The position numbers and the translations under genes are program-made. The notes under the pieces were generated by a model. That model was not told the DNA's origin. It worked only from the letters and a program-made list of their open reading frames with translations, and did no database searches. A DNA stretch of 64,000 bases from a virus, in the IMG/VR virus record IMGVR_UViG_3300035564_000075, positions 1 through 64,000 of that record; one strand, given 5' to 3'. Shown here in pieces: positions 1 to 52,298 of this stretch. How positions within the stretch are numbered: the first letter of the stretch is position 1; each line of letters begins with the position of its first letter.

Positions 1-21
1 CCAATCTCCCCATGAAAAATC

Positions 22-31
22 GTGATATAAT
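22..31 (+). promoter_or_regulatory. extended -10 promoter element upstream of tRNA array
   Basis: GTGATATAAT (TGnTATAAT). Confidence 0.5.
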
Positions 32-85
32 TGTAGTGGTTATGAGCCTGCTCTACTTGCACTTTAACAACTGAAATGCCAACTA

Positions 86-158
86 GCCTTTGAAGCACAT
101 TTGGATGTGCGCCCGTTCCGTAAACGGGAGGTAGTCCGTTCGAATCGGATCATTGGCT
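86..158 (+). tRNA. tRNA-Thr(CGT)
   Basis: anticodon arm cccgt-tcCGTaa-acggg; GTTCGAAT T-loop; two U.U mismatches in acceptor; C33, A8. Confidence 0.8.
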
Positions 159-235
159 CATAGTTTCTTGCATCTATAAAATGCAAGTGGTGGACTCTCC
201 CATGAGCATCAAATTTATGCCCAATTTGGTGTCTT

Positions 236-574
236 ATGTACCAATGTGATTGGTGTGGAGAATTCTTTGATCGTAGAAGGCATGGAAAGAAATCTGTATT
301 CGTTTTTTGTTCAAGAGTATGCAAGGAAAAAGCCCAGTCCATAGAAGGTGGAGACAAGTTCTCTTCCATGCGACCTCATCATTATGGAAATGGGAATTAT
401 CAATACAGACGAAGGGCATTTAGACATTATGGTGCAAAGTGCAATAGATGTGGATATTCCGAAAATGTGAAAGCCTTGCAGGTGCATCACAAAGATGGAA
501 ATCATCAGAACGGTCACATTGAAAATCTAGAAGTGCTTTGTGCTAATTGTCACGCAATTGAAACATGGGCCTAA
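236..574 (+). CDS. HNH endonuclease
   Basis: CxxC pairs and LQVHHKDGN...NLEVLCANCH HNH motif. Confidence 0.9.
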   Translation: MYQCDWCGEFFDRRRHGKKSVFVFCSRVCKEKAQSIEGGDKFSSMRPHHYGNGNYQYRRRAFRHYGAKCNRCGYSENVKALQVHHKDGNHQNGHIENLEVLCANCHAIETWA

Positions 575-639
575 GTTGTTGGTGGGTGGCATAATGCTCC
601 TGCAAAGCGTAGGATAGGGTTCAACTCCCTATAGGTCCA
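567..639 (+). tRNA. tRNA-Ala(TGC)
   Basis: acceptor gggccta/taggtcc with G3.U70 Ala identity pair; loop ccTGCaa; overlaps HNH stop. Confidence 0.8.
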
Positions 640-644
640 CCTAT

Positions 645-718
645 GCGGTTCTGTCCATTAGGGACAAGCAATCTTCTCTTGCGGGAAGAGTCTGGTTGAA
701 CACCAGAGAGCCGCACCA
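645..718 (+). tRNA. degenerate tRNA-like gene (TTC-centred loop, encoded CCA)
   Basis: acceptor gcggttc/gagccgc + A-CCA; T arm tctgg-ttgaaca-ccaga; atypical all-pyrimidine loop tcTTCtc. Confidence 0.55.
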
Positions 719-789
719 GCGGGTATGATATATTGGCAGTGTCGTACTCCTCCAAAGTACTGAAAAGGGTTCGATTCCCTTTACCCGCA
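719..789 (+). tRNA. tRNA-Gly(TCC)
   Basis: gcgggta/tacccgc; gtact-ccTCCaa-agtac; C33. Confidence 0.9.
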
Positions 790-794
790 CCTAT

Positions 795-865
795 GGCCGC
801 TAGTCCGACTGGCTAGGAGATCCTCCGCAAAAGGATCGTGATCGGTTCGAATCCGATAGTGGCCT
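795..865 (+). tRNA. tRNA-Cys(GCA)
   Basis: atcct-ccGCAaa-aggat; U73 discriminator; C33. Confidence 0.88.
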
Positions 866-967
866 CTTGAGCTAGGTTTCACTTCCTTTCCCTAGCTCAA
901 TTCGACCTCCTTTCTAAAAGTGGATGGGGTGGTTACATTGCCCTCAGTGTTTGGCCCCATCCACCAT

Positions 968-1039
968 GCCTCTGTAACTCAATGGCAGAGTAATCGCCCC
1001 TTAAGCGAGAAGTTGACGGTTCAAGTCCGTCCAGTGGCA
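968..1039 (+). tRNA. tRNA-Lys(CTT)
   Basis: tcgc-ccCTTaa-gcga; C33. Confidence 0.88.
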
Positions 1040-1140
1040 CTAACCGTTGGTCTCCATCGTGAATGGGCGGGAGACATCTGGAGGGGCACGCCGCGGAGTG
1101 CAGCCAAGCCCCTGAATAAATCTGCATCCCCCATTCATAT

Positions 1141-1213
1141 GCTTCTCTAGCTCAATGGATAGAGTAGCCGCCCTCTAAGCGGTTGGTTCAGGGTCCGAGT
1201 CCCTGGAGGAGCG
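1141..1213 (+). tRNA. tRNA-Arg(TCT)
   Basis: gccgc-ccTCTaa-gcggt; T-loop GTCCGA; C33, C55. Confidence 0.9.
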
Positions 1214-1337
1214 CCTATGGAAAGAGTCTGGGTAGCACCCTTGACCGTCTGGTATCAGATAGACTGAAGAGCACTTCTTCCTTTCCTGCGTCACCTGCTA
1301 TAAGTGGTGAGACCTGGGCGACGCGTTCGCTACCAAT

Positions 1338-1413
1338 GCTTCTGTAGCTCAACGGTCAGAGCGCTTGTCCTACACACAAGATGTTGGTGGTTCGAATCCA
1401 CTCAGATGCACCA
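1338..1413 (+). tRNA. tRNA-Val(TAC)
   Basis: cttgt-ccTACac-acaag; encoded CCA; C33. Confidence 0.9.
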
Positions 1414-1487
1414 AGGAATAATCAGGCTTACTAAATATCATAATATGGCAACGTTCTGAATACGTTGCGCCCATGGTTATTCCACGC

Positions 1488-1559
1488 TGCGCGGTAGAGT
1501 ACTGGTAACTCAGAGGTCCCATAAACCTCGGTATGTGGGTTCGAATCCCACCCTCGCAA
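1488..1559 (+). tRNA. tRNA-Met(CAT)
   Basis: gaggt-ccCATaa-acctc; initiator-like 5' end but no GGG/CCC anticodon stem; C33. Confidence 0.85.
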
Positions 1560-1564
1560 CCTTT

Positions 1565-1648
1565 GCCCTCCTGCTGGAATTGGTAGACAAGGACGCCCTA
1601 AAAGCGTTCGCCTTAATCGGCGTGAGGGTCCGAGTCCCTCGGTGGGCA
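1565..1648 (+). tRNA. tRNA-Leu(TAA)
   Basis: long variable arm; gacgc-ccTAAaa-gcgtt; C33, C55. Confidence 0.9.
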
Positions 1649-1716
1649 CCTGGAGGCAAGAATGATACTTGCAATCCTGTTCTGGACAATCTGTATACTA
1701 TTTGATAGGAGATCAT

Positions 1717-2715
1717 ATGGGAACAAAAAAGATAGAACATCTCGTGAATCATATCGTATTGGTGCTTGATGGTAGTGGCAGTATGAGAGGACAGCCAGTT
1801 GAAGCGGTTGTCGATCGTGAAATAGATAACCTGAAACAACGTTCTGTGGATCTGAATCAGGAAACTCGCATCTCCATCTATCTCTTCAATACCAAGGTTG
1901 AGAATCTTGTCTTTGACATGGATGTAATGAGATTCAAGACTCTGCGTGGTCTTTATGATGCAGATGGGCAAACTGCCCTAATTGATGCAACCATGAAGGG
2001 TCTTGGAGACCACCAGCACATTCCGGAACTATACGATGACCATGCTTTTCTTGCTTATGTCATCACTGATGGTCAAGAGAATGCAAGTGTACACAGATCT
2101 GGTGAACTTGCAACCATGATCGAGAACCTTCCGGATAACTGGACTGTAGCATGTTTGGTTCCAGATGCAAATGGTGAATACGAAGCCAAGAAGTTTGGTT
2201 TTCCTGCTGGCTCAATCGCCAAATGGGATACTCATTCTGCAAAGGGCTTCGAGGAAGTTGGAAAGCAGTTCACTACTGTAACCAGCAACTACATGACCAT
2301 GCGTGCCTCTGGTGTGAGATCCACAAAGGGTCTATTCACTCTTGACTCTAAGGGATTGCACAAGTCTGACCTGAAACCAATCGATTTCAGTTACCAGATC
2401 TACAACATTCTGCATGATGGCAGAATTGACGAAGCTGTAGAGGATCTTACTGGTCGCAGATATGTTCCTGGCAGCACTTTCTATCAACCAATGAAAGCTG
2501 TGAAGATTCAGGACTACAAAGAGATCCTTGTGCAGAATGTGAAGAGTGGAATTGTTTATAGCGGAGAGAATATCCGTCAGTTGCTTGGATTGCCTTCCCA
2601 GACCGTGGAAGTGAATCCTGGACAGCATAAAGACTGGAAGATCTTCGTGCAAAGTACATCCTTGAACCGCAAACTGTTTGCGGGAACTCAGATCCTAGTG
2701 AGGATGGACTACTAA
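1717..2715 (+). CDS. von Willebrand factor type A (vWA) domain protein
   Basis: MIDAS motif LDGSGSM, T-AL, ITDGQEN; AGGAG RBS before ATG at 1717. Confidence 0.85.
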   Translation: MGTKKIEHLVNHIVLVLDGSGSMRGQPVEAVVDREIDNLKQRSVDLNQETRISIYLFNTKVENLVFDMDVMRFKTLRGLYDADGQTALIDATMKGLGDHQHIPELYDDHAFLAYVITDGQENASVHRSGELATMIENLPDNWTVACLVPDANGEYEAKKFGFPAGSIAKWDTHSAKGFEEVGKQFTTVTSNYMTMRASGVRSTKGLFTLDSKGLHKSDLKPIDFSYQIYNILHDGRIDEAVEDLTGRRYVPGSTFYQPMKAVKIQDYKEILVQNVKSGIVYSGENIRQLLGLPSQTVEVNPGQHKDWKIFVQSTSLNRKLFAGTQILVRMDY

Positions 2716-2791
2716 TTTACGATAACGCGCCGCAGGTAAGCGGCTAGTGCCGACCGCATGAAATAGAAACGGACTTACCTCCGTAGGCCAT

Positions 2792-2873
2792 CGCAATGTG
2801 GTGGAACTGGTAGACACACCTGCCCTAGGAGCAGACGACTACGGTCGTGGAGGTTCGAGTCCTCTCATTGCGA
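2792..2873 (+). tRNA. tRNA-Leu(TAG)
   Basis: ctgc-ccTAGga-gcag; variable arm; C33. Confidence 0.9.
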
Positions 2874-2952
2874 CAAACCCAATAAACGGGGACTGTTTGT
2901 AGGCTTCATAGTAACGGCCAGTGCACTGGTGTCGTAGCGTAGAAACCCTCAT

Positions 2953-3025
2953 CGCTCCGTAGCTCAATTGGCAGAGCAACAGACTTTTAATCTGGAGGTT
3001 GGGAGATCGTTGCTCCCCGAGGCGA
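2953..3025 (+). tRNA. tRNA-Lys(TTT)
   Basis: caga-ctTTTaa-tctg; atypical T-loop atcgttg. Confidence 0.85.
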
Positions 3026-3029
3026 CAAT

Positions 3030-3113
3030 GGAGTGCTGGCGTAACGGCTATCGCAGTGGTTCGCTAAACCACCCAACCGCAAGGTTGTCCGAGTCCGAAT
3101 CTCGGGCGCTCCG
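3030..3113 (+). tRNA. tRNA-Ser(GCT)
   Basis: gtggt-tcGCTaa-accac; long variable arm; C33, C55. Confidence 0.9.
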
Positions 3114-3118
3114 CCTAT

Positions 3119-3191
3119 GCTGGTGAAGCACATTCGGATGTGTGCCTTCTTGGTAAGAAGGTGGCAGTGAGTTCGAATCTCACCACTAGCT
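3119..3191 (+). tRNA. tRNA-Thr(GGT)
   Basis: ccttc-ttGGTaa-gaagg; A8. Confidence 0.9.
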
Positions 3192-3251
3192 CTCTGACGG
3201 TGCAAGGTCCACCCCAAGCCCTTGCCGATCCCAAGGGGTCCGTCAGCCCAC

Positions 3252-3325
3252 GCCGACAAAGCTCATATTGGATGAGCAAGCGCCCTGTAAGCGCAAGGTA
3301 GAGAGTTCGAATCTCTCTGTTGGCT
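3252..3325 (+). tRNA. tRNA-Thr(TGT)
   Basis: gcgc-ccTGTaa-gcgc; C33, A8. Confidence 0.88.
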
Positions 3326-3329
3326 CTAT

Positions 3330-3413
3330 GGAAGCGTGGGGTAATGGCTATCCCTCCTGTCCTGAAAACAGACCAGCCGCAAGGCTGTGCGCGTTCGAGT
3401 CGCGCCGCTTCCG
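3330..3413 (+). tRNA. tRNA-Ser(TGA)
   Basis: ctgt-ccTGAaa-acag; long variable arm; C33. Confidence 0.9.
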
Positions 3414-3580
3414 CCTTGGGCATATTTGCTCCTGATGCATGCTGTTGGAGATTTGCCCAGAATAGGGTGGCACCTACCCCGTAGTCTCTTGGTGTAGTAG
3501 CAGCTAGCTCTGCTTACTGCCAGGGTAAGGCTTAGATGAAAGTGGCGTTCTACTCCCCGAGGAGAGGCTCGGGCTAAACT

Positions 3581-3653
3581 GCCCCTGTAGCTCAATGGAT
3601 TAGAGCACTGGTCCACGGAACCAGTAATCCGAGTTCGAGTCTCGGTAGAGGCG
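3581..3653 (+). tRNA. tRNA-Arg(ACG)
   Basis: ctggt-ccACGga-accag; C33. Confidence 0.9.
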
Positions 3654-3711
3654 CTAGCTCATGTACCATGTGTACAAGGAGTAACGGAATTCCTACTAGG
3701 AATTCCAGCTT

Positions 3712-3794
3712 GCAGATGTGACGGAACCGGCATACGTGTCTGCCTCAAAACCAGATGTGCGATGCACACGGGAGTTCGAATCTCCCCATCTGCA
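3712..3794 (+). tRNA. tRNA-Leu(CAA)
   Basis: loop ctCAAaa; variable arm; acceptor gcagatg/catctgc. Confidence 0.9.
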
Positions 3795-3798
3795 CTAT

Positions 3799-3879
3799 GC
3801 GTGGGTTGGACAGGTGGTGAGTCCCCCTGACTGTAGATCAGGAGCCTCGGCTGTGGGAGTTCGATTCTCTCCTCACGCA
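3799..3879 (+). tRNA. tRNA-Tyr(GTA)
   Basis: cctga-ctGTAga-tcagg. Confidence 0.9.
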
Positions 3880-3969
3880 CAATCGGCAATGGCAAAAGTG
3901 AGTTCCTAATTCTGGCGGTAAGGATAACGCTCTACGGTCCTGGGAAAACCTATCACTCCATTGCCGTAT

Positions 3970-4042
3970 GCGCCTGTAGCTCAACGGACTGAGCAAGTGT
4001 TTCCTAAACACTAGGTTATGGGTTCAAATCCCATCAGACGCT
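3970..4042 (+). tRNA. tRNA-Arg(CCT)
   Basis: agtgt-ttCCTaa-acact. Confidence 0.9.
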
Positions 4043-4081
4043 CTTGGCATGCTGGACCTGAAATCCAGCCTCTGCCAACTT

Positions 4082-4159
4082 CCTCCGGTATGTCTCAATG
4101 GTTAGAGCAACTGTCTTATGAGCAGCGAGTTGGAGGTTCGACTCCTCCACGGAGGACCA
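4082..4159 (+). tRNA. tRNA-Ile(TAT)
   Basis: ctgt-ctTATga-gcag; T arm ggagg-ttcgact-cctcc; encoded CCA. Confidence 0.75.
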
Positions 4160-4812
4160 TGCTAAAGTATTTGATTTGTTCCGTACAGAGAAGCGGAAGC
4201 AACTTGCTGTGTGATTACTTGAAGAATACGAATGTCCTAGGAAATCCATTAGAGATGTTCAATCCACAAGGACCTAATGAGGGCTTCTACTTCACAGATG
4301 ATCATATAAGGCACATGATAGAAACAGATTCGCATGATGGTATTTTTGGTGCGAAAGTGATGTTCGATCAGGTAGTGTCTTATATAGGAACAAGAAGTTT
4401 CAATAGAATGTTTCATCATTCGAGGTTCGTCTTCATTCGAAGACAGGATAAGGTAGAACAAGCAATATCATTGTCCAGGGCAATGCAAACAGGAAGTTGG
4501 ATGGGCACACAAGAACCAACAATAGTTCCTGAATACAAATTCTGGCACATTCTCACCTGTCAGTATCTGATATATATGCAGGAAAGAGGATGGACACGTT
4601 TCTTTGAAGAGTATAAAGTTCCACATATAACAGTATGGTATGAGGACCTGCAACAAAACCCAGATGAGCAGTTGAATATAGTTACCTCATATATTCTATC
4701 AACAAAGACGAGTCTTAGCGCAGTAACAGATATGAAAATACAGCGCGATTCGCTAACAGAGATGTGGAAAGAACAGTTCAGCAAGGATCTAACAGAGAAG
4801 ATAAAAATATGA
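4159..4812 (+). CDS. Stf0-family (PAPS-dependent) sulfotransferase
   Basis: YLICSVQRSGSNLL P-loop, RRQDKVEQAISL motif, YEDL; probable start at MLKY (4159). Confidence 0.8.
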   Translation: MLKYLICSVQRSGSNLLCDYLKNTNVLGNPLEMFNPQGPNEGFYFTDDHIRHMIETDSHDGIFGAKVMFDQVVSYIGTRSFNRMFHHSRFVFIRRQDKVEQAISLSRAMQTGSWMGTQEPTIVPEYKFWHILTCQYLIYMQERGWTRFFEEYKVPHITVWYEDLQQNPDEQLNIVTSYILSTKTSLSAVTDMKIQRDSLTEMWKEQFSKDLTEKIKI

Positions 4813-5000
4813 TCATAAAACGTGTAAAAGCAATTTTAGCATATGTCTTTGGAAGGATTTTCATCTTCTTCTGGGTAATGTGCGCCAAGATGGATTTTTC
4901 GTCTGCTTTCAATACCTTGACTAGCATGGCAGACAATCTTAGAAGGATGGAACAACAACAAGACATACAAGAAAATTATAATAAGGTCATGCGGGAATAG
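4809..5000 (+). CDS. small membrane-associated hypothetical protein
   Basis: ATGA overlap with sulfotransferase stop; hydrophobic N-terminal segment; stop inside tRNA-Gly. Confidence 0.55.
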   Translation: MIIKRVKAILAYVFGRIFIFFWVMCAKMDFSSAFNTLTSMADNLRRMEQQQDIQENYNKVMRE

Positions 5001-5063
5001 CTCAATCGGTGGAGCGTCTTTCTGCCAAGAAGAAGGTTGCGAGTCCGAGTCTCGCTTTCCGCA
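4991..5063 (+). tRNA. tRNA-Gly(GCC)
   Basis: tcttt-ctGCCaa-gaaga; C55. Confidence 0.9.
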
Positions 5064-5067
5064 CTAT

Positions 5068-5140
5068 GCTGGACTGGCGCAATGGTCAGCGCAATCGTCT
5101 GATAAGCGATAGGTTCTCCGTCCAAGTCGGAGGTTCAGCA
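5068..5140 (+). tRNA. tRNA-Ile(GAT)
   Basis: atcgt-ctGATaa-gcgat; C55. Confidence 0.9.
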
Positions 5141-5250
5141 CTATGCTGGTAGTGGCTAATAAATGTGAGTGAGTCTTCAATGCAAGAAGATTCCGCCACG
5201 AGGGTGATCCTGCAGCGCACAGGCCCAACATTCCGCCCTCACCAGCACAT

Positions 5251-5322
5251 GCAACCGTAGTCCAGCGGTTAAGACGGTGGCCCCTCAAGCCTCCGACCCG
5301 AGTTCGATCCTCGGCGGTTGCA
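5251..5322 (+). tRNA. tRNA-Glu(CTC)
   Basis: ggc-ccCTCaa-gcc; acceptor gcaaccg/cggttgc; C33. Confidence 0.88.
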
Positions 5323-5337
5323 CCTAGGAGAGCAAAC

Positions 5338-5487
5338 ATGTTCAGATGTAGATCCTGTTCTGCTGATTGTTTTGGTATGTCGCACGATCATGGCAAGTTT
5401 GGTTGTATCTATTGCCATTGTAGAAAGACAGAAGAACAGGTCGAACTGGAAGGAGAGCCTCCAAGTTCGTATGCCCTTGTCGTCTAG
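5338..5487 (+). CDS. 49-aa Cys/His-rich putative zinc-binding protein (not in ORF track)
   Basis: AGGAG RBS; MFRCRSCSADCFGMSHDHGKFGCIYCHCRKTEEQVELEGEPPSSYALVV*. Confidence 0.6.
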   Translation: MFRCRSCSADCFGMSHDHGKFGCIYCHCRKTEEQVELEGEPPSSYALVV

Positions 5488-5544
5488 CGGCCAGGACGTA
5501 AGCCTTTCAAGCTTGCAAGCAGAGTTCGAGTCTCTGCAAGGGCA
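5473..5544 (+). tRNA. tRNA-Glu(TTC)
   Basis: taagc-ctTTCaa-gcttg. Confidence 0.9.
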
Positions 5545-5548
5545 CTAT

Positions 5549-5620
5549 TCACGAGTACCATAATGGAAGTGGGCACGACTGTTAATCGTGTACGTGGTGG
5601 TCCGACTCCACCCTCGTGAG
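5549..5620 (+). tRNA. tRNA-Asn(GTT)
   Basis: cacga-ctGTTaa-tcgtg; C55. Confidence 0.9.
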
Positions 5621-5624
5621 CTAT

Positions 5625-5697
5625 GGGATCATGGTCTAACGGCCCATGACGCTTCCCTGTCAAGGAAGTAGTGAGAGTTCGACCCTCTCTGGTCCCG
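5625..5697 (+). tRNA. tRNA-Asp(GTC)
   Basis: cttcc-ctGTCaa-ggaag. Confidence 0.9.
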
Positions 5698-5701
5698 CCT
5701 T

Positions 5702-5711
5702 GTGGTATAAT
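5702..5711 (+). promoter_or_regulatory. internal extended -10 promoter in tRNA array
   Basis: GTGGTATAAT ending 8 nt before tRNA-Trp. Confidence 0.55.
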
Positions 5712-5719
5712 GTACGTAT

Positions 5720-5791
5720 AGGTTGTTCGTCCAACGGCCAGGATAAGCGTCCCCAAAACGTTTGATGGGAGTTCGAATCTCTCACGACCTG
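5720..5791 (+). tRNA. tRNA-Trp(CCA)
   Basis: agcgt-ccCCAaa-acgtt; C33. Confidence 0.88.
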
Positions 5792-5801
5792 CCTTTCTTA
5801 T

Positions 5802-5875
5802 CTGGGATTAGCTCAGTCCGGTAGAGCACTGCGCCTGGGACGCAGGGGCCACAGGTCCAAATCCTGTATCTCAGA
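5802..5875 (+). tRNA. tRNA-Pro(TGG)
   Basis: ctgcg-ccTGGga-cgcag; C33, C55. Confidence 0.9.
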
Positions 5876-5879
5876 CTAT

Positions 5880-5951
5880 TGCCCCCTCATCTAACGGTAA
5901 GGATGGCTGGCCTTGAACCAGAGCATCGAGGTTCGAATCCTTGGGAGGCAG
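5880..5951 (+). tRNA. tRNA-Gln(TTG)
   Basis: ctgg-ccTTGaa-ccag; U1-A72; C33. Confidence 0.88.
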
Positions 5952-6004
5952 CTAGCTTGTCCTGCAGGCAAGCATGGACTAGACATCAACAGTGTCTAGT
6001 TTAT

Positions 6005-6076
6005 TGTCCCCTCGTCTAACGGTTAGGACCCCTGCCCCTGGAGCAGGGTATCGTAGTTCGAATCTACGGGAGACAG
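6005..6076 (+). tRNA. tRNA-Gln(CTG)
   Basis: cctgc-ccCTGga-gcagg; C33. Confidence 0.9.
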
Positions 6077-6081
6077 CCTTT

Positions 6082-6154
6082 GCCGCTTTAGCTCAGTTGG
6101 TAGAGCGCATGCCCGAAGAGCATGGCGTCGGCAGTCCGATTCTGTCAGGCGGCA
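6082..6154 (+). tRNA. tRNA-Phe(GAA)
   Basis: catgc-ccGAAga-gcatg; C33, C55. Confidence 0.9.
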
Positions 6155-6174
6155 CACGAATAATAGAGGAAAAT

Positions 6175-6357
6175 ATGAACTGTCCAAATTGTGGTAGAGT
6201 GATTTATGGTTTTTGGAAATATCCGGTAAGCTTGGCATGCAGTTGGAAATGCTTTCGTAGGCTTATTGCAGAAGGCAAGATCCCCAGAATAACCCCAGAA
6301 CGAAGTTATGAAGAACTTGGCATTTCAGCACCCAATAAGAAGGAAGAAAATTCCTAA
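6175..6357 (+). CDS. small zinc-finger protein
   Basis: GAGG RBS; MNCPNCG...ACSWKC. Confidence 0.65.
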   Translation: MNCPNCGRVIYGFWKYPVSLACSWKCFRRLIAEGKIPRITPERSYEELGISAPNKKEENS

Positions 6358-6368
6358 TAGGAAACTAT

Positions 6369-7088
6369 ATGGACATAGCAAATCATACTTGTGCTGTTTG
6401 TAAACACCCATACACGCATCAACTTTATAGCCTTCCTGGACGAGATCCAAATATGTGGGCAGAGATGTATCTCTGCCCTATTTGTTATTCCTTGACTCCG
6501 GACTATGGCACCGTTCTATCAAAAGAGCAGGCCGATGCAGATATGATTGCATCATTCCCTACTCAGGACTGGGTAAAGAATAGAGATGCACTTATGGGAC
6601 TTGTGAAGTTCTATGAAGGGGAAATCAACAGGAACGAACTGGTTGGAGAGGTTGGTGGCGGTCCTGGGTGTTTAGCATCTGCACTTATCAATAGTGGATA
6701 TGACTATATTGGTAGTGAACCTACTCCACTTTGTGAACGAGCCAAGAAGGTCTTTGGCATTCCCGATAATAGGTATATGCAGACAGACTATAATGGCTTC
6801 TTTATGATGACAGAGGGACAGAAGTTTGGAACTATCTTTATGTGGCATGTTCTGGAGCATGTGCAAGATCCCATGGAGCTACTTACTAAGACTTATGATT
6901 CCCTGCTTCCTGGCGGCAAGATTATTGCAGAGATTCCATTGCCAATTCCAGCATATATCTTTCCGGATCATCTCTCCTTCTTTTCGAAGCCAACACTCTT
7001 ATACATAAAGAGCACGATCGGTTTTTCTGAACATATCACAAGAGAAGTCAAGGACTGGAACTATATGTCCTTCATAATGAGGAAATAA
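6369..7088 (+). CDS. class I SAM-dependent methyltransferase with N-terminal zinc ribbon
   Basis: EVGGGPG motif I; WHVLEHVQDP; LLPGG; CxxC pairs. Confidence 0.85.
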   Translation: MDIANHTCAVCKHPYTHQLYSLPGRDPNMWAEMYLCPICYSLTPDYGTVLSKEQADADMIASFPTQDWVKNRDALMGLVKFYEGEINRNELVGEVGGGPGCLASALINSGYDYIGSEPTPLCERAKKVFGIPDNRYMQTDYNGFFMMTEGQKFGTIFMWHVLEHVQDPMELLTKTYDSLLPGGKIIAEIPLPIPAYIFPDHLSFFSKPTLLYIKSTIGFSEHITREVKDWNYMSFIMRK

Positions 7089-7089
7089 T

Positions 7090-7749
7090 ATGCCAGAAAA
7101 AGATGCGGTACTGATACAGCAAAGTTGGCATGGCAGGAACGATGTCAGATGGCCTGGATTGAACAATCTAGGCATGATTGCATTGACGGAAGATAGGAAT
7201 AGGAAGTACTGCCAACTCCACGACATGGATTACTGGTGTGTAAAGGAAACCATCACGGATCTCCCTATGGATGAAAAGACTTGGGAGAGGGTAGAACTGA
7301 TAAAGAAAGCACTTGCTCAAGGATACCAGAAAGTCATCTGGTTGGATGTAGATACTGTCATAAAGAAACCTGAATACGATCTTCGTGATGCATGCATACG
7401 AATTGGCATGTGCTATGATACTGAGTTTGAACTGAAGCACTACAATTGTGGTGCGATGTACTTTGACAATATACCATCCACACGCAAGTTTGTGGATGAA
7501 TGGAACTATGTTCCTGGTGCCTTTTGGGGAGGACACTATTGGCATGAACAGTCTATTCTGAATAAGAATATGCCGCAATATCCAGACACTTTCTACAGAC
7601 TTCCCAATAAGTGGAATGCCTATATTGGCACTCCATGCGCAGAAGATGATATAATAGTGAAAGCATGGCATGGTTATTTCCCAGGCAATGACAAAATTAC
7701 AGCAATGAAAGCCTGTCTTGCAGGACTTTCTGATATAGAGGGAGCATGA
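7090..7749 (+). CDS. GT-A glycosyltransferase (GT34/MNN10-like)
   Basis: IWLDVD DxD motif; YNCG; HEQS. Confidence 0.75.
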   Translation: MPEKDAVLIQQSWHGRNDVRWPGLNNLGMIALTEDRNRKYCQLHDMDYWCVKETITDLPMDEKTWERVELIKKALAQGYQKVIWLDVDTVIKKPEYDLRDACIRIGMCYDTEFELKHYNCGAMYFDNIPSTRKFVDEWNYVPGAFWGGHYWHEQSILNKNMPQYPDTFYRLPNKWNAYIGTPCAEDDIIVKAWHGYFPGNDKITAMKACLAGLSDIEGA

Positions 7750-9131
7750 ACTCGTGGGATCTATTCGACACGCTTATTGGAAGATGGTATGGGGACCCAA
7801 TCAGTATATTTTTTGAGGTAGAAAGGCGCGCAGACTTCCCTGGATTCGTCAAAATCAGGCGGGATTCTGAATTGGAGCTCTATCCACTTGGCAAAAATGT
7901 CACTTTGGATGACATCTACCTAAATTTTCAGAAGAAAACGGGCGTTACTGACGAAAAAATGAAGGAATTGATGGCTCTTGAGCTTGAAATGGAGCTTTTG
8001 ATGTCATTTCCTATCACCAAGAACTCAAAAAGAGTGCAAAAAGGCGATATTGTTGTCTCCGACATGTATTTGCCAAAGGATTTCATGGAGACACTGCTGG
8101 AAAAGAATGGAATTGGACCAGTAAGTGATATTTATGTAGCCTCTGGTGGTAAGGGAAGTGGAAATATATGGCCGACTGTCCATCAGAAGTTCCGCCCCGA
8201 GATCCATACTGGTGATAATAAGTGGTCCGACTGCGATATGCCACGCAGACGTGGAATTCGCACCGCCTGCTATGAGGATGTCAAGAGTGAAGGCGAAACT
8301 TTGCTGGAAAAGGATGGATTCCAGAGAATAGCAAACCTATCAAGGGTATTACGTTTGTCTTGCCCATATACTAATTCATCTGAAAGACTGGTATGGGATG
8401 AACAAGCTACAATAAACATTCCGATCCTGATCCTGGTATCTCTTTACATACCACTTATCTATAGCGGCAAGCGCGTGCTGATGTCCACCAGAGATTGTAA
8501 CAATCTCCTGAACATCTTTCCGCTTATAGTTCCAAATATGAAGGCAGAAGAGTTCTTCACTTCTAGGAAGTGCTACTGGTCAGGTAGTCAAGAATACATG
8601 TCGTATGCACGTTACAAACTTGGCATTGATGATCCATTGATAGTTGATTTCCATGGAAGCGGCAACAGTCTTGATCACTTCTTCGGACAATTCAGCAAGT
8701 ATCCTAAGTGCTTTACGATCGTACAGACTAGACCGAGAGGAGTTCCTCCAATGCTGTGGAGAAAGTACATAGTCGATCGCACATTTGAAGACATGTTCGC
8801 ATTGCGAGATGGGATCATGTGGGAGATAGAGAATGCAAATCTGGACGAGGTTGGTAGTGTCATGGATGTTCGCAATGGCGTGCCTATTAGGGCACCACTA
8901 CGTTACAAAACAGATATGGTCAAGGTACAACATGCTGCAGTTGCTGCTGCAGTCGATCTACTGAAGAAAGGATTCGATATTCATCCTGTGGTAGAGTCAA
9001 AGGCTGGCATAGAGAGCACTGTAACATCTTTGCTGAAGATCCTGGGACATAACGGCGCTGCGATTCTCAAGACTGGTGTGCCTGATATAAATGACTGGCC
9101 TGGGTCTGTACTTTTGAAAGATATAAAGTGA
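7746..9131 (+). CDS. HAD-superfamily hydrolase (polysaccharide-biosynthesis type)
   Basis: SWDLFDTL motif I; VSDMY; HTGDN..SD. Confidence 0.8.
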   Translation: MNSWDLFDTLIGRWYGDPISIFFEVERRADFPGFVKIRRDSELELYPLGKNVTLDDIYLNFQKKTGVTDEKMKELMALELEMELLMSFPITKNSKRVQKGDIVVSDMYLPKDFMETLLEKNGIGPVSDIYVASGGKGSGNIWPTVHQKFRPEIHTGDNKWSDCDMPRRRGIRTACYEDVKSEGETLLEKDGFQRIANLSRVLRLSCPYTNSSERLVWDEQATINIPILILVSLYIPLIYSGKRVLMSTRDCNNLLNIFPLIVPNMKAEEFFTSRKCYWSGSQEYMSYARYKLGIDDPLIVDFHGSGNSLDHFFGQFSKYPKCFTIVQTRPRGVPPMLWRKYIVDRTFEDMFALRDGIMWEIENANLDEVGSVMDVRNGVPIRAPLRYKTDMVKVQHAAVAAAVDLLKKGFDIHPVVESKAGIESTVTSLLKILGHNGAAILKTGVPDINDWPGSVLLKDIK

Positions 9132-11018: not shown

Positions 11019-11309
11019 ATGACCAGAACTCTACTATCTAAGAACAAAGACATAACACCAGAGGACAGCCGTGAAGTTGATAATGATGGAATGGTCAAAC
11101 TAATGCGTGCACGTGGCTTTGTGCAGGCTGCTATCGAAGCAGACAACATGCGCTTGATCTACATCTTCCCAAGAAAGGAAACTCAGCCATTGCTGGATGA
11201 GATACTTGCAAATAAGCCAATTATGATCGAATGGCAGAAGTATCGTGATGCAGAGGAAGAGTGGAAGACAACCCTATCCATTCTGAAGGAAATGCGTGGC
11301 AGGAAGTAA
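11019..11309 (+). CDS. hypothetical protein upstream of terminase
   Basis: GAGG RBS; overlaps terminase start. Confidence 0.65.
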   Translation: MTRTLLSKNKDITPEDSREVDNDGMVKLMRARGFVQAAIEADNMRLIYIFPRKETQPLLDEILANKPIMIEWQKYRDAEEEWKTTLSILKEMRGRK

Positions 11310-12996
11310 GATCTATGTGATGACGCCTGCCGAAATAGAGATATTGAAAGCAGGTGCATCCGATCCAACCATCATACTTGATTACTTCTCTCGTCGGCCA
11401 GGGCAAGACCATGGCTGGCGCTTTGACTACAACTTTACCGAAGAAGGTAAGTGGCAGAAGGAGATGTGTCAAGCATCCCAGACCTTCATCGTCTGTATTG
11501 CCGGTATTGCTACTGGCAAAACGGTCGGTGTTGGTATGGCCGCTGTTACCCATGCCATTCTCACTCCAGATTTCAAGTTCCTGAATGTGGCACGTGAAGC
11601 ATGGCAGTCACAACTGATGTACAACGCCATCCTGGAACATGCCGCAGGCACATTGCTTGAGAAACTGATCGTTGCCTCTCCTAGAAGGCCCTATCCCATG
11701 ATTGTCATTGAGTATATTGTCAATGGCATTCATATCAGATCTACTTTGGAGTTCATGTCCATAGGAGAGAAAGAAGATGCTGCAAATATATTTTCATGGC
11801 GTGGTGACTGGATCAATATTGATGAAGCTGGCCGACTTGACGACCTTGGTACGATTGTTGCGAACCTTTCAACACGTGGAACTGGTGCTACACCAGGGGG
11901 AAGGTCATATCTGGGTAGGATCTCGCTTACCACGAACCCATGGGACAATCCAGACCTATGGATTCTCTTCGACATGGCAGCGGCTGATCCGGAAAATTCG
12001 CTTGCGCTTAACATTGATACGTCTTCTAATAAGAATACTACTCAGAAACAGATCGACCAAATCATAAAGATCAACCGCATGGTGCTTGGCTCTGGAGATG
12101 TCAACAGATTCCTAACAGGAAAGCGTCCAGAGGGCAAAGGTACTTACTTCCCGAAGAATGTAGTGGATTCTTGTACATCCAGAATACTATCTACTCCAAT
12201 TGCCAATGGCATGAATGAAGGGACCCCTGAATATGAACTTCAGATCATGGGACAGTTGGGTGCATACTACTTCAAGACCCCAAGACAGAATGATAGGTTG
12301 TATTTCCTATTAGGAGATCCTGGTACTGGTGCTCCTCCAGCGCGTAATGCATTTGTAGTACAAGTCTGGGATGTAACTGATTCTGGTGAAGGCAAACCTG
12401 CATTGCTGGTGGCACAGCACTGGGGCAATGGTGGTGGACAGATAGAACCATTTGTAGAGCAGGTGATTGATTGGATAAAGTATTACAAGCCCATCTTCGC
12501 TGGTGTAGATTCTACTGGTCCACAGAAGAACACTGCTGAAATTGTTTCTCTGGATAGGATCTATGGCAAGGGTTATTCGGTAAGTGCGCTAACCCCCATG
12601 GACTTCTCCGGAGGCAAGCGTATTTCTTATTTGGGTTCTTTGCGTATAATACTAGAAGCAGGGCTAATGCTATGGCCTAGTATATGCACAGGAATCGGGA
12701 GTCAATTAAAAAACTATGATCCAGTCGTGGATAGGAATCCAAACTCAAAACTTCCGCAGGATCTTGTCGCAACTATGGCAATGGCTGCGCGTGCGATTCA
12801 TGGTCACTACGGCATCCTTGGTAAGGAAGGAAGCGATAATGACGCAGGACAAGGCACTGAGATTGTCAACCCTCGCAGATTTGATCGAAGCGAAGGTACA
12901 ACTTGGTCCGGTCGTTCCCAGAGAGACAATGCGGGACGCTCGGAGTATGACCCGAGAGCGGCGTCTGAGGAGATAGAAAGACGCATCAGATCCTAA
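11296..12996 (+). CDS. terL: terminase large subunit
   Basis: Walker A AGIATGKT, Walker B INIDEAG, TTNP coupling motif, RNase H-like GDPG..D; precedes portal. Confidence 0.88.
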   Translation: MAGSKIYVMTPAEIEILKAGASDPTIILDYFSRRPGQDHGWRFDYNFTEEGKWQKEMCQASQTFIVCIAGIATGKTVGVGMAAVTHAILTPDFKFLNVAREAWQSQLMYNAILEHAAGTLLEKLIVASPRRPYPMIVIEYIVNGIHIRSTLEFMSIGEKEDAANIFSWRGDWINIDEAGRLDDLGTIVANLSTRGTGATPGGRSYLGRISLTTNPWDNPDLWILFDMAAADPENSLALNIDTSSNKNTTQKQIDQIIKINRMVLGSGDVNRFLTGKRPEGKGTYFPKNVVDSCTSRILSTPIANGMNEGTPEYELQIMGQLGAYYFKTPRQNDRLYFLLGDPGTGAPPARNAFVVQVWDVTDSGEGKPALLVAQHWGNGGGQIEPFVEQVIDWIKYYKPIFAGVDSTGPQKNTAEIVSLDRIYGKGYSVSALTPMDFSGGKRISYLGSLRIILEAGLMLWPSICTGIGSQLKNYDPVVDRNPNSKLPQDLVATMAMAARAIHGHYGILGKEGSDNDAGQGTEIVNPRRFDRSEGTTWSGRSQRDNAGRSEYDPRAASEEIERRIRS

Positions 12997-43747: not shown

Positions 43748-44146
43748 CTAACCAGCTTGTATGTTTAGTAGATAAGCAAAACGGGGATCGTGTACGATAG
43801 GATCTTCGTACCACGTGCCCCATACCAAGATAGCTGGTTTGCTTGGTAGATGCTCAATAATCTCTAGCTGTGATATACTCTGCAATCTGATTATGTCTTC
43901 ATCTACCGACTTGTGCAGGGCGCTAGCTATCTCTTGGAACTCTTCATATGTACCAGTAACAACAAACAGCATGTCCCTATGCATCCATAGGTTGCCAGGG
44001 ACCCAACTGAACATACTACCATCCTTCTTATTCAGGTCAGCGACCAGTGATTCCCATGCATCACACTTGGGATCTGCACAGTGCCTTACTTGCCTGTCAA
44101 ACACTGAATAGACCAGTCTCCAGTCATGTTCATGCATACTCTGCAA
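43748..44146 (-). CDS. hypothetical protein
   Basis: 132-aa ORF in operon. Confidence 0.55.
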   Translation of the reverse strand: MQSMHEHDWRLVYSVFDRQVRHCADPKCDAWESLVADLNKKDGSMFSWVPGNLWMHRDMLFVVTGTYEEFQEIASALHKSVDEDIIRLQSISQLEIIEHLPSKPAILVWGTWYEDPIVHDPRFAYLLNIQAG

Positions 44147-51971: not shown

Positions 51972-52298
51972 TCAGCAATCCATTGGATCGAAGTCTACGC
52001 ATTTATCACAACCACCATCACATGGATCGGGAGGTCTACATTCTTCTGGCTTGATATAACCATTGTCCCTTGCCCATTTATCCAGCGCTTCACGTGGTGC
52101 AAGTTCTTCTACGGGAGGATTGCATACTGGGCAACATTCTACATGACATGGATTGTCACAGTCGCATGCAACGTTATCTATAAAAGGTAATCCCTTCTTC
52201 TCTCTAGCATGGTTCGGACAAGTTTTATCGTGGAAGAAGTGTATTTCATCTGAATCAGTTTCAATGCGCTTGTGGCAAATAACACATTTGGTATACAC
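51972..52298 (-). CDS. Cys-rich hypothetical protein
   Basis: numerous Cys in 108 aa. Confidence 0.55.
   Translation of the reverse strand: MYTKCVICHKRIETDSDEIHFFHDKTCPNHAREKKGLPFIDNVACDCDNPCHVECCPVCNPPVEELAPREALDKWARDNGYIKPEECRPPDPCDGGCDKCVDFDPMDC

What the first reader, a model, noticed from the sequence alone, without database searches (positions are those of the whole stretch)
86..6154. Systematic U33-to-C substitution in 20 of 31 canonical tRNAs
Seen: C directly 5' of the anticodon in Thr-CGT, Ala, Gly-TCC, Cys, Lys-CTT, Arg-TCT, Val, Met, Leu-TAA, Leu-TAG, Ser-GCT, Thr-TGT, Ser-TGA, Arg-ACG, Glu-CTC, Trp, Pro, Gln-TTG, Gln-CTG and Phe. Established: U33 is near-invariant (anticodon U-turn). 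The three queuosine-type tRNAs here (Tyr, Asn, Asp) all keep U33, matching the U33-G34-U35 requirement of tRNA-guanine transglycosylase, so the pattern does not look like random decay. Inference: either array-wide escape from host anticodon nucleases, or genomic C restored by C-to-U editing (analogous to C8 editing in Methanopyrus kandleri). I recognised no deaminase in this window.
Basis: partly seen in the sequence, partly recalled or inferred. Interest (0 to 1): 0.8.

Follow-up and report, generated by a model that had tools for sequence, protein, structure and literature searches.

The report
Phage tRNAs lacking both U-turn uridines
An uncultured 84.6-kb phage carries a full set of 32 tRNA genes, 20 with C instead of the near-universal U before the anticodon and 9 with C instead of the equally conserved U in the T-loop, most likely to escape host enzymes that cut tRNA at those uridines.

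Summary
Twenty of the 31 tRNA genes at 86-6155 have C at position 33. That is 20 of 32 in the whole 84,630-bp virus record, because tRNA-His straddles the record's ends. Infernal alignments and 5-bp anticodon stems confirm the numbering.

I found a second replacement. The T-loop uridine U55, the tRNA's other U-turn base, is C in 9 of 32. In all, 24 of 32 tRNAs lack at least one U-turn uridine, while G53, C56 and C61 are kept in 30 of 30 and T54 and A58 in 29 of 30.

In my survey of 1,292 distinct phage tRNAs, C33 occurs in 3.1% and C55 in 0.5%. No other array with 10 or more tRNAs exceeds 4 of 17. Forty cellular tRNAs had neither change.

No deaminase was found, so C-to-U editing is unsupported.

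My best reading (confidence 0.45, inferred) is that these are working tRNAs selected to escape a tRNA nuclease that reads the U-turn uridines. The published Schlafen nuclease CbCash (PMC13462974) cuts at exactly these two sites and is blocked by U55 substitution. The host and the nuclease are unidentified.

The queuosine argument holds within this genome (p=0.014) but not across phages. This scan has noted C33 or C55 phage tRNAs on other DNA before; this array is the most extreme I measured.

The parts
1..12 (+). 3' end of tRNA-His(GTG). The gene is at 84444-84519 of the record and runs through the 123-bp end repeat. U33, C55.
86..159 (+). tRNA-Thr(CGT), C33 at 118, U55
   Evidence: Rfam 39.2 bits
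567..641 (+). tRNA-Ala(TGC), C33 at 600, U55, G3:U70 kept; weak Rfam match
   Evidence: Rfam 17.3 bits, below cut-off
719..791 (+). tRNA-Gly(TCC), C33 at 750
795..866 (+). tRNA-Cys(GCA), C33 at 826; ARAGORN only
   Evidence: no Rfam match
968..1040 (+). tRNA-Lys(CTT), C33 at 999
1141..1215 (+). tRNA-Arg(TCT), C33 at 1173 and C55 at 1195
1338..1413 (+). tRNA-Val(TAC), C33 at 1370
   Evidence: 64.4 bits
1488..1561 (+). tRNA-Met(CAT), C33 at 1519
1565..1650 (+). tRNA-Leu(TAA), C33 at 1598 and C55 at 1630; ARAGORN only
   Evidence: no Rfam match
2792..2874 (+). tRNA-Leu(TAG), C33 at 2825
   Evidence: a run X1 contig piece at 2802-2952 shows no other letters
2953..3026 (+). tRNA-Lys(TTT), U33; T-loop reads A54..T58 instead of T54..A58
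3030..3115 (+). tRNA-Ser(GCT), C33 at 3062 and C55 at 3095; ARAGORN only
   Evidence: no Rfam match
3119..3192 (+). tRNA-Thr(GGT), U33, U55; 92% identical to the Thr-GGT of relative L135, which has C55
3252..3325 (+). tRNA-Thr(TGT), C33 at 3285; found by Rfam only
3330..3415 (+). tRNA-Ser(TGA), C33 at 3362
3581..3654 (+). tRNA-Arg(ACG), C33 at 3614
   Evidence: a run X1 contig piece at 3545-3695 shows no other letters
3712..3795 (+). tRNA-Leu(CAA), U33, U55
3799..3880 (+). tRNA-Tyr(GTA), U33, U55
3970..4043 (+). tRNA-Arg(CCT), U33, U55
4083..4159 (+). tRNA-Ile(TAT), U33, U55; lowest Rfam score of those that pass (32.5 bits)
4991..5064 (+). tRNA-Gly(GCC), U33, C55 at 5045
5068..5141 (+). tRNA-Ile(GAT), U33, C55 at 5122
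5251..5324 (+). tRNA-Glu(CTC), C33 at 5283
5473..5545 (+). tRNA-Glu(TTC), U33, U55
5549..5621 (+). tRNA-Asn(GTT), U33, C55 at 5602
5625..5699 (+). tRNA-Asp(GTC), U33, U55
5720..5793 (+). tRNA-Trp(CCA), C33 at 5752
5802..5876 (+). tRNA-Pro(TGG), C33 at 5835 and C55 at 5857
5880..5951 (+). tRNA-Gln(TTG), C33 at 5912; found by Rfam only
6005..6078 (+). tRNA-Gln(CTG), C33 at 6037
6082..6155 (+). tRNA-Phe(GAA), C33 at 6114 and C55 at 6136

Best explanation
These are working phage tRNAs. Together they form a complete decoding set for all 20 amino acids. The uridines that make the two U-turns of tRNA, U33 in the anticodon loop and U55 in the T-loop, have been replaced by cytidine under selection. A pyrimidine still fits the fold, but the tRNA is no longer recognised or cut by a host (or rival-element) tRNA nuclease that reads those uridines. 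When such a nuclease is switched on during infection and destroys the host tRNAs, the phage's own tRNAs keep translation going.

Shown: the substitutions, their position-specificity, their always being U-to-C, their rarity elsewhere, and the integrity of the rest of the tRNAs.

Inferred: that they are selected, that they resist cleavage, and which kind of nuclease is involved. The closest published match is the Schlafen-type CbCash, which cuts 5' of U55 in the T-loop and at the equivalent site of anticodon loops.
For: 1. Position-specific and directional. There is C at position 33 in 20 of 32 tRNAs and at position 55 in 9 of 32, and never A or G. Other invariant T-arm positions are kept: G53, C56 and C61 in 30 of 30, T54 and A58 in 29 of 30.

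2. Independent genes. Pairwise identity among the phage's tRNAs is at most 73%, so the Cs are not copies of one mutated gene.

3. Extreme outlier. In 119 IMG/VR tRNA-array loci (1,624 tRNAs, 1,188 distinct), C33 occurs in 69 (38 distinct). The highest fractions among the 101 loci with 5 or more tRNAs are 2 of 5 and then 4 of 17. With seven more loci added (1,292 distinct), C33 is 3.1% and C55 is 0.5%. The binomial P is about 1e-22 for C33 and about 1e-13 for C55. Forty distinct cellular tRNAs had neither change.

4. The tRNAs look functional. 28 of 32 pass Rfam's cut-off. All 30 that ARAGORN folds have 17-25 standard pairs. The Ala identity pair G3:U70 is kept. The set covers all 20 amino acids. 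Met, Trp, Phe, Gln, Pro, Ala, Val and Cys codons are served only by C33 tRNAs within the phage's own set.

5. The nearest relative found shows a weaker form of the same trait. L135 (62% identical in the vWA gene embedded in the array) has 1 C33 and 2 C55 among 13 tRNAs. Its Thr-GGT is 92% identical to this phage's and differs at position 55.

6. A published nuclease has the matching specificity. CbCash cleaves tRNAs mainly in the T-loop 5' of U55 and also in anticodon loops. Single U54 or U55 substitutions abolish cleavage. [quoted passage not shown] Other tRNases also cut between T and Psi in the T-loop or in anticodon loops (PMC9086364, passages).

7. C33 should carry a cost. E. coli TsaBCDE does not make t6A on a U33C tRNA (PMC8887486, passages), and 6 of the 12 ANN-reading tRNAs here have C33. 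Keeping a costly change argues for a benefit.

8. The general idea that phage tRNAs carry loop substitutions that defeat host tRNases is in print (PMC10264068, Results read; PMC11464382, passages).
Against: The host is unknown, and no nuclease has been tied to this phage.

CbCash's main site is the T-loop, yet 22 of 32 tRNAs here keep T54-T55-C56. Seven tRNAs are unchanged in both loops: Thr-GGT, Leu-CAA, Tyr, Arg-CCT, Ile-TAT, Glu-TTC and Asp. A CbCash-like enzyme alone would therefore still stop translation.

CbCash's anticodon-loop sites have C after the U. C33 is not clearly enriched among C34 tRNAs here (6 of 8, against 14 of 24 for the rest).

No close relative with an array was found, so conservation of C33 over time (direct evidence of selection) could not be shown.

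Four C33 genes fail Rfam's cut-off.

Expression is untested.
Confidence: 0.45

Rival explanations
1. Tolerated drift. In this phage-host pair the U-turn uridines are under weak constraint, because C can take the same place. U-to-C transitions have then accumulated without any benefit.
For: C33 occurs at about 3% and C55 at about 0.5% in phage tRNAs generally, so both are tolerated. Natural C55 tRNA-Gly is charged normally in Lactiplantibacillus plantarum (PMC10464925, passage). Changes only to C are what a transition bias plus a need for a pyrimidine would give. Which tRNAs are changed shows no link to codon usage.
Against: Other invariant positions are strictly kept. Drift therefore has to be confined to two positions, in 24 separate genes, at 20 and 50 times the phage background. 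Relatives that share the array-embedded gene keep U33 in 46 of 47 and 12 of 13 tRNAs. C33 blocks t6A formation by the E. coli enzyme, so it is unlikely to be free of cost.
Confidence: 0.2
2. Self-immunity. The phage itself makes a tRNA nuclease or tRNA-modifying toxin that reads the U-turn uridines and destroys host tRNAs. Its own C33/C55 tRNAs are spared and replace them.
For: The phage carries a complete decoding set of 32 tRNAs for all 20 amino acids, which is what a replacement strategy would need. More than half of its ORFs have no family match.
Against: No RNase, HEPN, Schlafen, PIN or colicin-type family was recognised in the 112 ORFs scanned. Seven tRNAs, including the only Tyr and Asp tRNAs, keep both uridines and would be destroyed too.
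Confidence: 0.1
3. Avoidance of host modification enzymes. C33 and C55 keep the phage tRNAs from being modified (t6A37, Psi55, others). The result is a differently decorated, phage-specific tRNA pool.
For: C33 is an anti-determinant for E. coli TsaBCDE (PMC8887486). C55 cannot become pseudouridine. The four tRNAs that need the U33-G34-U35 determinant for queuosine all keep U33 (the determinant is as stated for the eukaryotic enzyme in PMC8136771).
Against: No advantage of lacking t6A or Psi55 is known. ANN-reading tRNAs are split 6 with C33 and 6 with U33, so t6A avoidance is not consistent. In other phages the queuosine-type Asn tRNA is the commonest C33 tRNA.
Confidence: 0.1
4. C-to-U editing. 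The genes encode C, but a deaminase restores U33 and U55 in the RNA. This would resemble C8-to-U8 editing in Methanopyrus kandleri (that system is recalled, not checked here).
For: Systematic genomic C at invariant-U positions in most tRNAs of a genome is exactly the M. kandleri pattern (recalled). Both sites are the second base of a 7-nt loop on a 5-bp stem, so one enzyme could in principle read both.
Against: A six-frame search of the whole record gave no match to PF00383 at E<=1. None of 112 ORFs matched a deaminase family. The only HxE..PC motif lies in a 108-aa cysteine-rich ORF that has no family match and only 11 residues after the motif. Twelve tRNAs keep U33 and 23 keep U55, so editing is not needed for function.
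Confidence: 0.06
5. Non-translational RNAs. The C33 genes are decoys or decaying pseudogenes, not working tRNAs.
For: Four C33 genes fail Rfam's cut-off. U33 is described as almost invariant in elongator tRNAs (PMC5041475, passages).
Against: 16 of the 20 C33 genes score 39-64 bits. All have intact cloverleaves, T-arms and 7-nt loops. Eight amino acids are served only by C33 tRNAs in the phage set. Decay would not hit one position only, and always as U-to-C.
Confidence: 0.05

Closest known systems
Nuclease-insensitive phage tRNAs: the hypothesis of van den Berg et al. 2023 (PMC10264068), phage T5 tRNA-Lys against PARIS AriB (PMC11464382), and T5 tRNA-Tyr against retron-Eco7 PtuAB (PMC11555353, search listing only)
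   Same: These are phage-encoded tRNAs that differ from cellular ones at bases in or near the anticodon loop. They are proposed or shown to escape host tRNases and so keep translation going.
   Different: The published cases are single tRNA species with idiosyncratic changes against tRNA-specific nucleases. Here one and the same change (U to C) at two universally conserved positions affects 24 of 32 tRNAs. Position 33 is not mentioned in PMC10264068 or PMC11464382.
Substrate rule of CbCash, the CRISPR-associated Schlafen tRNase of a Chloroflexi bacterium (PMC13462974)
   Same: It acts broadly on tRNAs and reads the U-turn in both the T-loop (it cuts 5' of U55) and the anticodon loop. U54 or U55 substitutions abolish cleavage. 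These are the two positions changed in this phage.
   Different: It is a candidate attacker, not a relative of the finding. No link to this phage's host is shown. Its preferred T-loop site is left intact in 22 of 32 tRNAs here.
C33 in cytoplasmic initiator tRNA-Met of multicellular eukaryotes (PMC5041475, PMC8887486)
   Same: A natural, functional tRNA with C at position 33. C33 changes recognition by the t6A machinery.
   Different: That is one specialised initiator tRNA in eukaryotes. Here it is 20 elongator-type tRNAs in a phage of bacteria.
Natural C55 in Lactiplantibacillus plantarum tRNA-Gly (PMC10464925)
   Same: A working bacterial tRNA with C in place of U55.
   Different: That is one tRNA family of a bacterium, with no link to defence. 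Here it is 9 tRNAs of 9 different specificities.
C8-to-U8 editing of Methanopyrus kandleri tRNAs by CDAT8 (recalled; no paper read)
   Same: Genome-wide C at an invariant-U position of tRNA genes.
   Different: That system has a dedicated deaminase. None was found in this phage, and many of its tRNAs keep the U.

Membership tests
Canonical tRNA (Rfam RF00005) | Cloverleaf scoring at or above the 29-bit gathering cut-off | tested here: met
   28 of 32 pass. Ala scores 17.3 bits, and Cys, Leu-TAA and Ser-GCT give no hit. ARAGORN folds all four with 20-25 standard pairs.
Canonical tRNA (Rfam RF00005) | U at position 33 (anticodon-loop U-turn) | tested here: not met
   C in 20 of 32
Canonical tRNA (Rfam RF00005) | U at position 55 (T-loop U-turn, becomes pseudouridine) | tested here: not met
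   C in 9 of 32
Canonical tRNA (Rfam RF00005) | Other invariant T-arm bases G53, T54, C56, A58 and C61 | tested here: met
   30, 29, 30, 29 and 30 of the 30 ARAGORN-folded tRNAs. The exception at 54 and 58 is Lys-TTT.
Nuclease-evading phage tRNAs | Encoded by a phage | tested here: met
   Complete virus record with terminase and portal genes
Nuclease-evading phage tRNAs | Differs from the host's tRNA at the nuclease's recognition or cleavage site | tested here: inconclusive
   The host is unknown. Forty tRNAs of five cellular genomes all have U33 and U55. The changed sites coincide with CbCash cleavage determinants.
Nuclease-evading phage tRNAs | Resists cleavage and rescues infection | not testable with these tools
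   Needs cleavage assays and infection experiments
Edited tRNAs (CDAT8 type) | Genomic C at an invariant-U position in many tRNA genes | tested here: met
Edited tRNAs (CDAT8 type) | A cytidine deaminase encoded alongside | tested here: not met
   No PF00383 match in six frames. No deaminase family in 112 ORFs. About 20 large structural ORFs were not scanned with Pfam.
Edited tRNAs (CDAT8 type) | U in the mature RNA | not testable with these tools
   No RNA run holds this sequence
Queuosine-type tRNAs (TGT substrates) | U33-G34-U35 in a 7-nt loop | tested here: met
   Tyr, Asn, Asp and His all read CTGTN

The most novel reading that the evidence does not exclude
The Cs are not the final state. 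An unrecognised enzyme of the phage or its host, not a classical zinc deaminase, converts C33 and C55 to U or a U-like base after transcription. The phage tRNAs would then be made in a nuclease-proof or inactive form and matured on demand. That would be a programmed tRNA-editing system in a virus.
Probability: 0.06. Interest if true: 0.9.

Novelty: new variant of a known kind. Interest (0 to 1): 0.72.

Why it matters
U33 and U55 are among the most conserved bases in biology, and each forms one of the two sharp turns of tRNA. A natural, complete decoding set in which most members do without them says two things. First, bacterial ribosomes, synthetases and processing enzymes can work with 'C-turn' tRNAs. 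Second, some strong pressure favours them.

The recently described Schlafen-type tRNases read exactly these uridines, and their authors state that it is open whether phage tRNAs are targeted. This array supplies 24 ready-made natural test substrates, with 8 internal controls, for that question.

It would also extend the idea of nuclease-proof phage tRNAs from single tRNAs and specific anticodon nucleases to a generic shield against broad tRNases. Finally, it offers design rules for tRNAs that resist such enzymes.

Tried and rejected
Close relatives. Megablast of 1-6500 and tblastn of the terminase against 50,697 isolated-phage records gave no match. The sulfotransferase and the 461-aa ORF gave no relative in IMG/VR. 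The terminase gave one 4.6-kb fragment.

An alignment of 27 of the 120 listed terminase homologues gave 44 loci, none with a tRNA within 10 kb. Of five whole records searched, one is a distant relative (terminase 32% identical) with an array of 33 tRNAs, 2 of them C33. Three others carry a single tRNA each.

A pattern from the unusual Thr D-arm found nothing in IMG/VR. I therefore could not test whether C33 is conserved over time.

Host. The phage ferritin's best matches are Anaerolineae and other Chloroflexota at 52-57% identity, but other phyla follow at 51-55%, so this is a weak hint only. A 20-kb stretch searched against 401 Chloroflexota genomes gave no exact spacer-like hit. The best hits were 25-36 nt at 86-96% identity.

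RNA evidence. No RNA holder was listed. The one DNA run, X1 (a freshwater metagenome holding 0.10 of the words), gave short contigs. Some cover C33 sites without any difference. One contig from a less similar tRNA-Leu shows an indel at 1598. The run may be the source sample, so it is not independent.

Cas13a as attacker. LshCas13a prefers tRNAs with UUU, UUC, UUG and UGU anticodons (PMC11042736, passages). Here Lys-UUU and Glu-UUC keep U33, so the fit is poor.

Restriction-site avoidance. Eight T-loops still contain TTCGAA.

Queuosine genes in the phage. The radical-SAM ORF at 44519-45322 matches PA0069/photolyase-like families, not QueE.

Genes beside the array. The ORFs near the array (methyltransferase, glycosyltransferase-like ORF, sulfotransferase, and a 461-aa protein like those associated with HAD hydrolases and glycosyltransferases) look like a sugar-modification cassette. 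They do not look like tRNA enzymes.

In print. Full-text searches found no paper describing C33 or C55 in phage tRNAs. The term sets were C33+U33+phage+tRNA, U33C, U33+bacteriophage+anticodon loop+tRNA genes, U55C, and phage tRNAs/T-loop/U-turn. Supplementary tables of PMC10264068 and PMC13462974 may list such cases.

Papers not held: PMC1369777 (Ashraf 1999) and PMC1370187 (Nonekowski and Garcia 2001). I saw their titles only in reference lists.

The cellular baseline is small: 40 tRNAs from 5 genomes. It is also biased toward the best Rfam scores.

Full report
WHAT THE WINDOW IS

The window is bases 1-64000 of an IMG/VR virus record of 84,630 bp, estimated complete. The last 123 bases repeat the first 123. 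The record has a large terminase (11296-12996), a portal (13111-14865), a long structural block on the + strand and early genes on the - strand.

It has no relative among 50,697 isolated-phage records, by DNA or by terminase protein. Terminase relatives of 42-84% identity do exist in metagenomes.

THE OBSERVATION

ARAGORN finds 29 tRNA genes at 86-6155. Rfam adds Thr-TGT (3252-3325) and Gln-TTG (5880-5951).

A 32nd gene, His-GTG, lies at 84444-84519 and runs through the end repeat into window bases 1-12. The array is therefore one continuous block.

I extracted the anticodon loops. Each loop has 7 bases and is closed by a 5-bp stem.

Infernal alignments to RF00005 place the C in the second loop column, opposite the consensus U, with top posterior probability. 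This holds for all six C33 tRNAs whose alignments were printed. The numbering is therefore right.

One caveat applies. 28 of 32 genes reach Rfam's 29-bit cut-off. Ala scores 17.3 bits, and Cys, Leu-TAA and Ser-GCT give no hit even at E<=10 in short stretches. All four are C33 genes, and two of them also have C55. ARAGORN still folds them into cloverleaves with 20-25 standard pairs, and Ala keeps its G3:U70 pair. Leaving them out gives 16 of 28.

A SECOND REPLACED URIDINE

I parsed ARAGORN's structures for all invariant positions. T-loop position 55 is U in nearly all tRNAs; it is converted to pseudouridine and forms the tRNA's second U-turn. Here it is C in 9 of 32 genes:
- Arg-TCT, Leu-TAA, Ser-GCT, Pro and Phe, which also have C33;
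- Gly-GCC, Ile-GAT, Asn and His, which keep U33.

The coordinates are 1195, 1630, 3095, 5045, 5122, 5602, 5857, 6136 and 84498. The Infernal alignment of Arg-TCT shows the same thing.

So 24 of 32 tRNAs lack at least one U-turn uridine. C55 is distributed independently of C33 (p=0.70). Lys-TTT has a different T-loop change, A54 with T58.

By contrast, G53, C56 and C61 are kept in 30 of 30 genes and T54 and A58 in 29 of 30. Every change at 33 and 55 is to C, never to a purine.

HOW UNUSUAL THIS IS

Small sample of related and unrelated phages. Phage arrays that share the vWA-like gene embedded in this array (49-62% identical), plus records reached through the terminase, gave 113 tRNAs with 4 C33.

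Larger, nearly unbiased sample. I scanned IMG/VR for a tRNA-Phe-like loop that allowed either pyrimidine at position 33, next to a standard T-arm. These hold 1,624 tRNAs (1,188 distinct sequences). C33 occurs in 69 (38 distinct), G in 10 and A in 3.

Among the 101 loci with at least 5 tRNAs, the highest C33 fractions are 2 of 5 and then 4 of 17.

Pooled with seven earlier loci (1,292 distinct tRNAs), C33 is 3.1% and C55 is 0.5%. Of the 7 C55 cases, 2 are in L135.

Against these rates, 20 of 32 has P about 1e-22 and 9 of 32 has P about 1e-13.

Cellular sample. Forty distinct tRNAs from five cellular genomes (Chloroflexota, a spirochaete, a planctomycete) all have U33 and U55. This sample is small and made of the best-scoring tRNAs.

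The literature calls U33 'almost invariant', with eukaryotic initiator tRNA and a Candida tRNA-Ser as the exceptional cases (PMC5041475, passages). It calls C55 'unique' (PMC10464925, passage).

NOT A COPYING ARTEFACT

The phage's tRNAs are at most 73% identical to each other. The Cs are therefore not copies of one mutated gene.

Contigs of a public run reproduce several C33 tRNAs without difference. That run may be the source sample.

RELATIVES

No close relative with an array could be found (see Tried and rejected). The nearest is L135, a metagenome contig whose vWA-like gene is 62% identical. It has 13 tRNAs, 1 with C33 (Val-TAC, which also has C55) and 2 with C55.

Its Thr-GGT is 92% identical to this phage's and differs at position 55. 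The trait is thus present in weaker form in the nearest lineage and has gone much further here.

EDITING

The whole record has no match to the cytidine/dCMP deaminase family in six frames at E<=1. The same search rang in 13 of 14 control genomes.

Pfam scans of 112 ORFs found no deaminase, RNA ligase, RNase or tRNA-modifying enzyme. These were 7 ORFs near the array, 50 of 115 aa or more from the non-structural part of the genome, and 57 smaller ones, with two counted twice. About 20 large ORFs of the structural block were not scanned with Pfam.

A motif search gave one hit, a 108-aa cysteine-rich ORF (51972-52298, - strand). It has no family match and too little sequence after the motif for a deaminase fold.

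Editing is therefore unsupported, though an unknown enzyme cannot be excluded.

WHICH tRNAs KEEP U33

More generally, U33 is kept in 7 of 10 tRNAs with G34 but only 5 of 21 with a pyrimidine at 34 (p=0.02). Without the four GUN tRNAs the G34 effect is not significant (3 of 6, p=0.31).

The queuosine explanation is not general. In the survey Asn-GTT is the commonest C33 tRNA (6 of 53 distinct), and one Tyr-GTA has it.

Codon usage shows no difference between codons read by C33 and by U33 tRNAs. Eight amino acids are served only by C33 tRNAs in the phage set.

MECHANISM

The pattern has four features: two positions, both the second base of a 7-nt loop on a 5-bp stem, both U-turn uridines, both changed only to the other pyrimidine. 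That points to something that reads the uridine of tRNA U-turns.

A nuclease of exactly that kind was published in 2026. CbCash is a Schlafen-domain effector of a Chloroflexi type III CRISPR system. The paper (PMC13462974; abstract, passages and Discussion read) reports that:
- it cleaves 28 E. coli tRNAs, mainly in the T-loop immediately 5' of U55;
- it also cleaves anticodon loops at a site followed by UC;
- it loses activity on single U54 or U55 substitutions;
- in the cryo-EM structure it holds the anticodon loop and the T-loop in two equivalent pockets.

Other broad tRNases cut between T and Psi of the T-loop or in anticodon loops (PMC9086364). The general idea that phage tRNAs carry loop changes that defeat host tRNases is established as a hypothesis and in two T5 cases (PMC10264068; PMC11464382).

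I therefore read this array as a generic shield against such enzymes.

This is an inference, and it has weak points:
- The host is unknown. The ferritin hint toward Chloroflexota is weak, and no spacer-like match was found.
- 22 of 32 T-loops keep the UUC motif.
- Seven tRNAs are unchanged in both loops.
- C33 is not clearly enriched among tRNAs with C34.

A nuclease that favours the anticodon-loop U-turn, or several enzymes acting together, would fit better than CbCash itself.

C33 probably has a price. The E. coli t6A enzyme does not modify a U33C tRNA (PMC8887486), and six ANN-reading tRNAs here have C33. That argues against pure drift.

COMPARISON AND NOVELTY

The kind of thing, phage tRNAs altered to escape tRNA-targeting defence, is known. 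The variant is not in print, as far as five full-text searches show. What is new is the same U-to-C change at both universally conserved U-turn positions across most of a complete tRNA set.

Earlier notes of this scan report C33 or C55 in other uncultured phages at lower fractions. I found C55 here before reading those notes, and I measured the background rates myself. One note's mention of T-loop-cutting defence nucleases led me to search for and read the CbCash paper.

VERDICT

The nuclease-escape reading is favoured at 0.45. Editing is unsupported at 0.06. The finding is a new variant of a known kind, of high interest because it makes an open question directly testable.

Noticed in passing
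window 1669-2715 (+); also L001:3353-4330, L003:6001-6981, L135:3425-4405, L136:104-1126, L142:844-1251: A 348-aa vWA-like protein (phrog_26613, E 1.5e-80; weak Pfam VWA hits) sits inside tRNA arrays, flanked directly by tRNA genes, in at least six different phages or contigs. Its constant place among tRNAs suggests a tRNA-related role. It is not specific to C33 arrays.
   Followed up: partly
window 2953-3026: The T-loop of tRNA-Lys(TTT) reads A54..T58 in place of the universal T54..A58 pair. The swap also removes the UUC motif.
   Followed up: no
window 86-159, 567-641, 795-866, 3119-3192, 4083-4159: Position 8 is A instead of U in 5 of 30 tRNAs (Thr-CGT, Ala, Cys, Thr-GGT, Ile-TAT), against 4.8% in the phage survey. 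ARAGORN's D-arm parse is uncertain for some of them.
   Followed up: no
window 4168-4812, 6369-7088, 7090-7749, 7746-9131: A Stf0-type sulfotransferase lies inside the tRNA array. Just after the array come a class I methyltransferase, a weakly glycosyltransferase-like ORF and a 461-aa protein whose Atlas neighbours are HAD-hydrolase and glycosyltransferase fusion proteins. Together they look like a sugar-modification cassette.
   Followed up: partly
window 236-574: An ORF with an HNH-type motif lies between tRNA-Thr(CGT) and tRNA-Ala. It is probably a homing endonuclease inserted in the array. I read the motif by eye from the translation and did not scan it against families.
   Followed up: no
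window 6082-6155 and 3799-3880; also Phe tRNAs of L001, L003, L049, L050, L135: The phage tRNA-Phe and tRNA-Tyr have G37, where E. coli has a modified A37 (recalled). G37 in tRNA-Phe recurs in all five related arrays examined.
   Followed up: no
window 1-123 and record 84508-84630: The 123-bp 'direct terminal repeat' cuts through tRNA-His and tRNA-Thr(CGT). It looks like the overlap of a circular or circularly permuted assembly and not like a physical genome end.
   Followed up: partly
L001:5769-5844, L003:9527-9603: Two distant phages that share the vWA-like gene carry a tRNA with anticodon CTA (amber suppressor type). ARAGORN labels it Pyl.
   Followed up: no
L207, L217, L229, L235, L242, L245, L251, L261: A group of IMG/VR phage arrays repeatedly has C33 in Asn-GTT (two copies in seven of the eight loci, one in L251) and in Ser-AGA. 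So in other phages it is a queuosine-type tRNA that loses U33.
   Followed up: partly
L185, L250: Several tRNAs (Ser, Met, His) of one phage lineage have G at position 55 (T-loop GTGCAAGTC). This is a different rewrite of the T-loop.
   Followed up: no
window 56345-56481: A stretch of about 135 nt gives weak DNA matches (68-75% identity over 78-147 nt, and shorter matches at up to 96%) in 12 of the 401 Chloroflexota genomes searched. Unexplained; it may be a conserved or low-complexity gene segment.
   Followed up: no
window 44519-45322 (-): A radical-SAM protein of the PA0069 / spore-photoproduct-lyase-like kind lies next to a weakly UDG-like ORF (44130-44522). This suggests DNA repair or DNA modification. 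A small ORF elsewhere matches DUF1599 ('nucleotide modification associated').
   Followed up: partly
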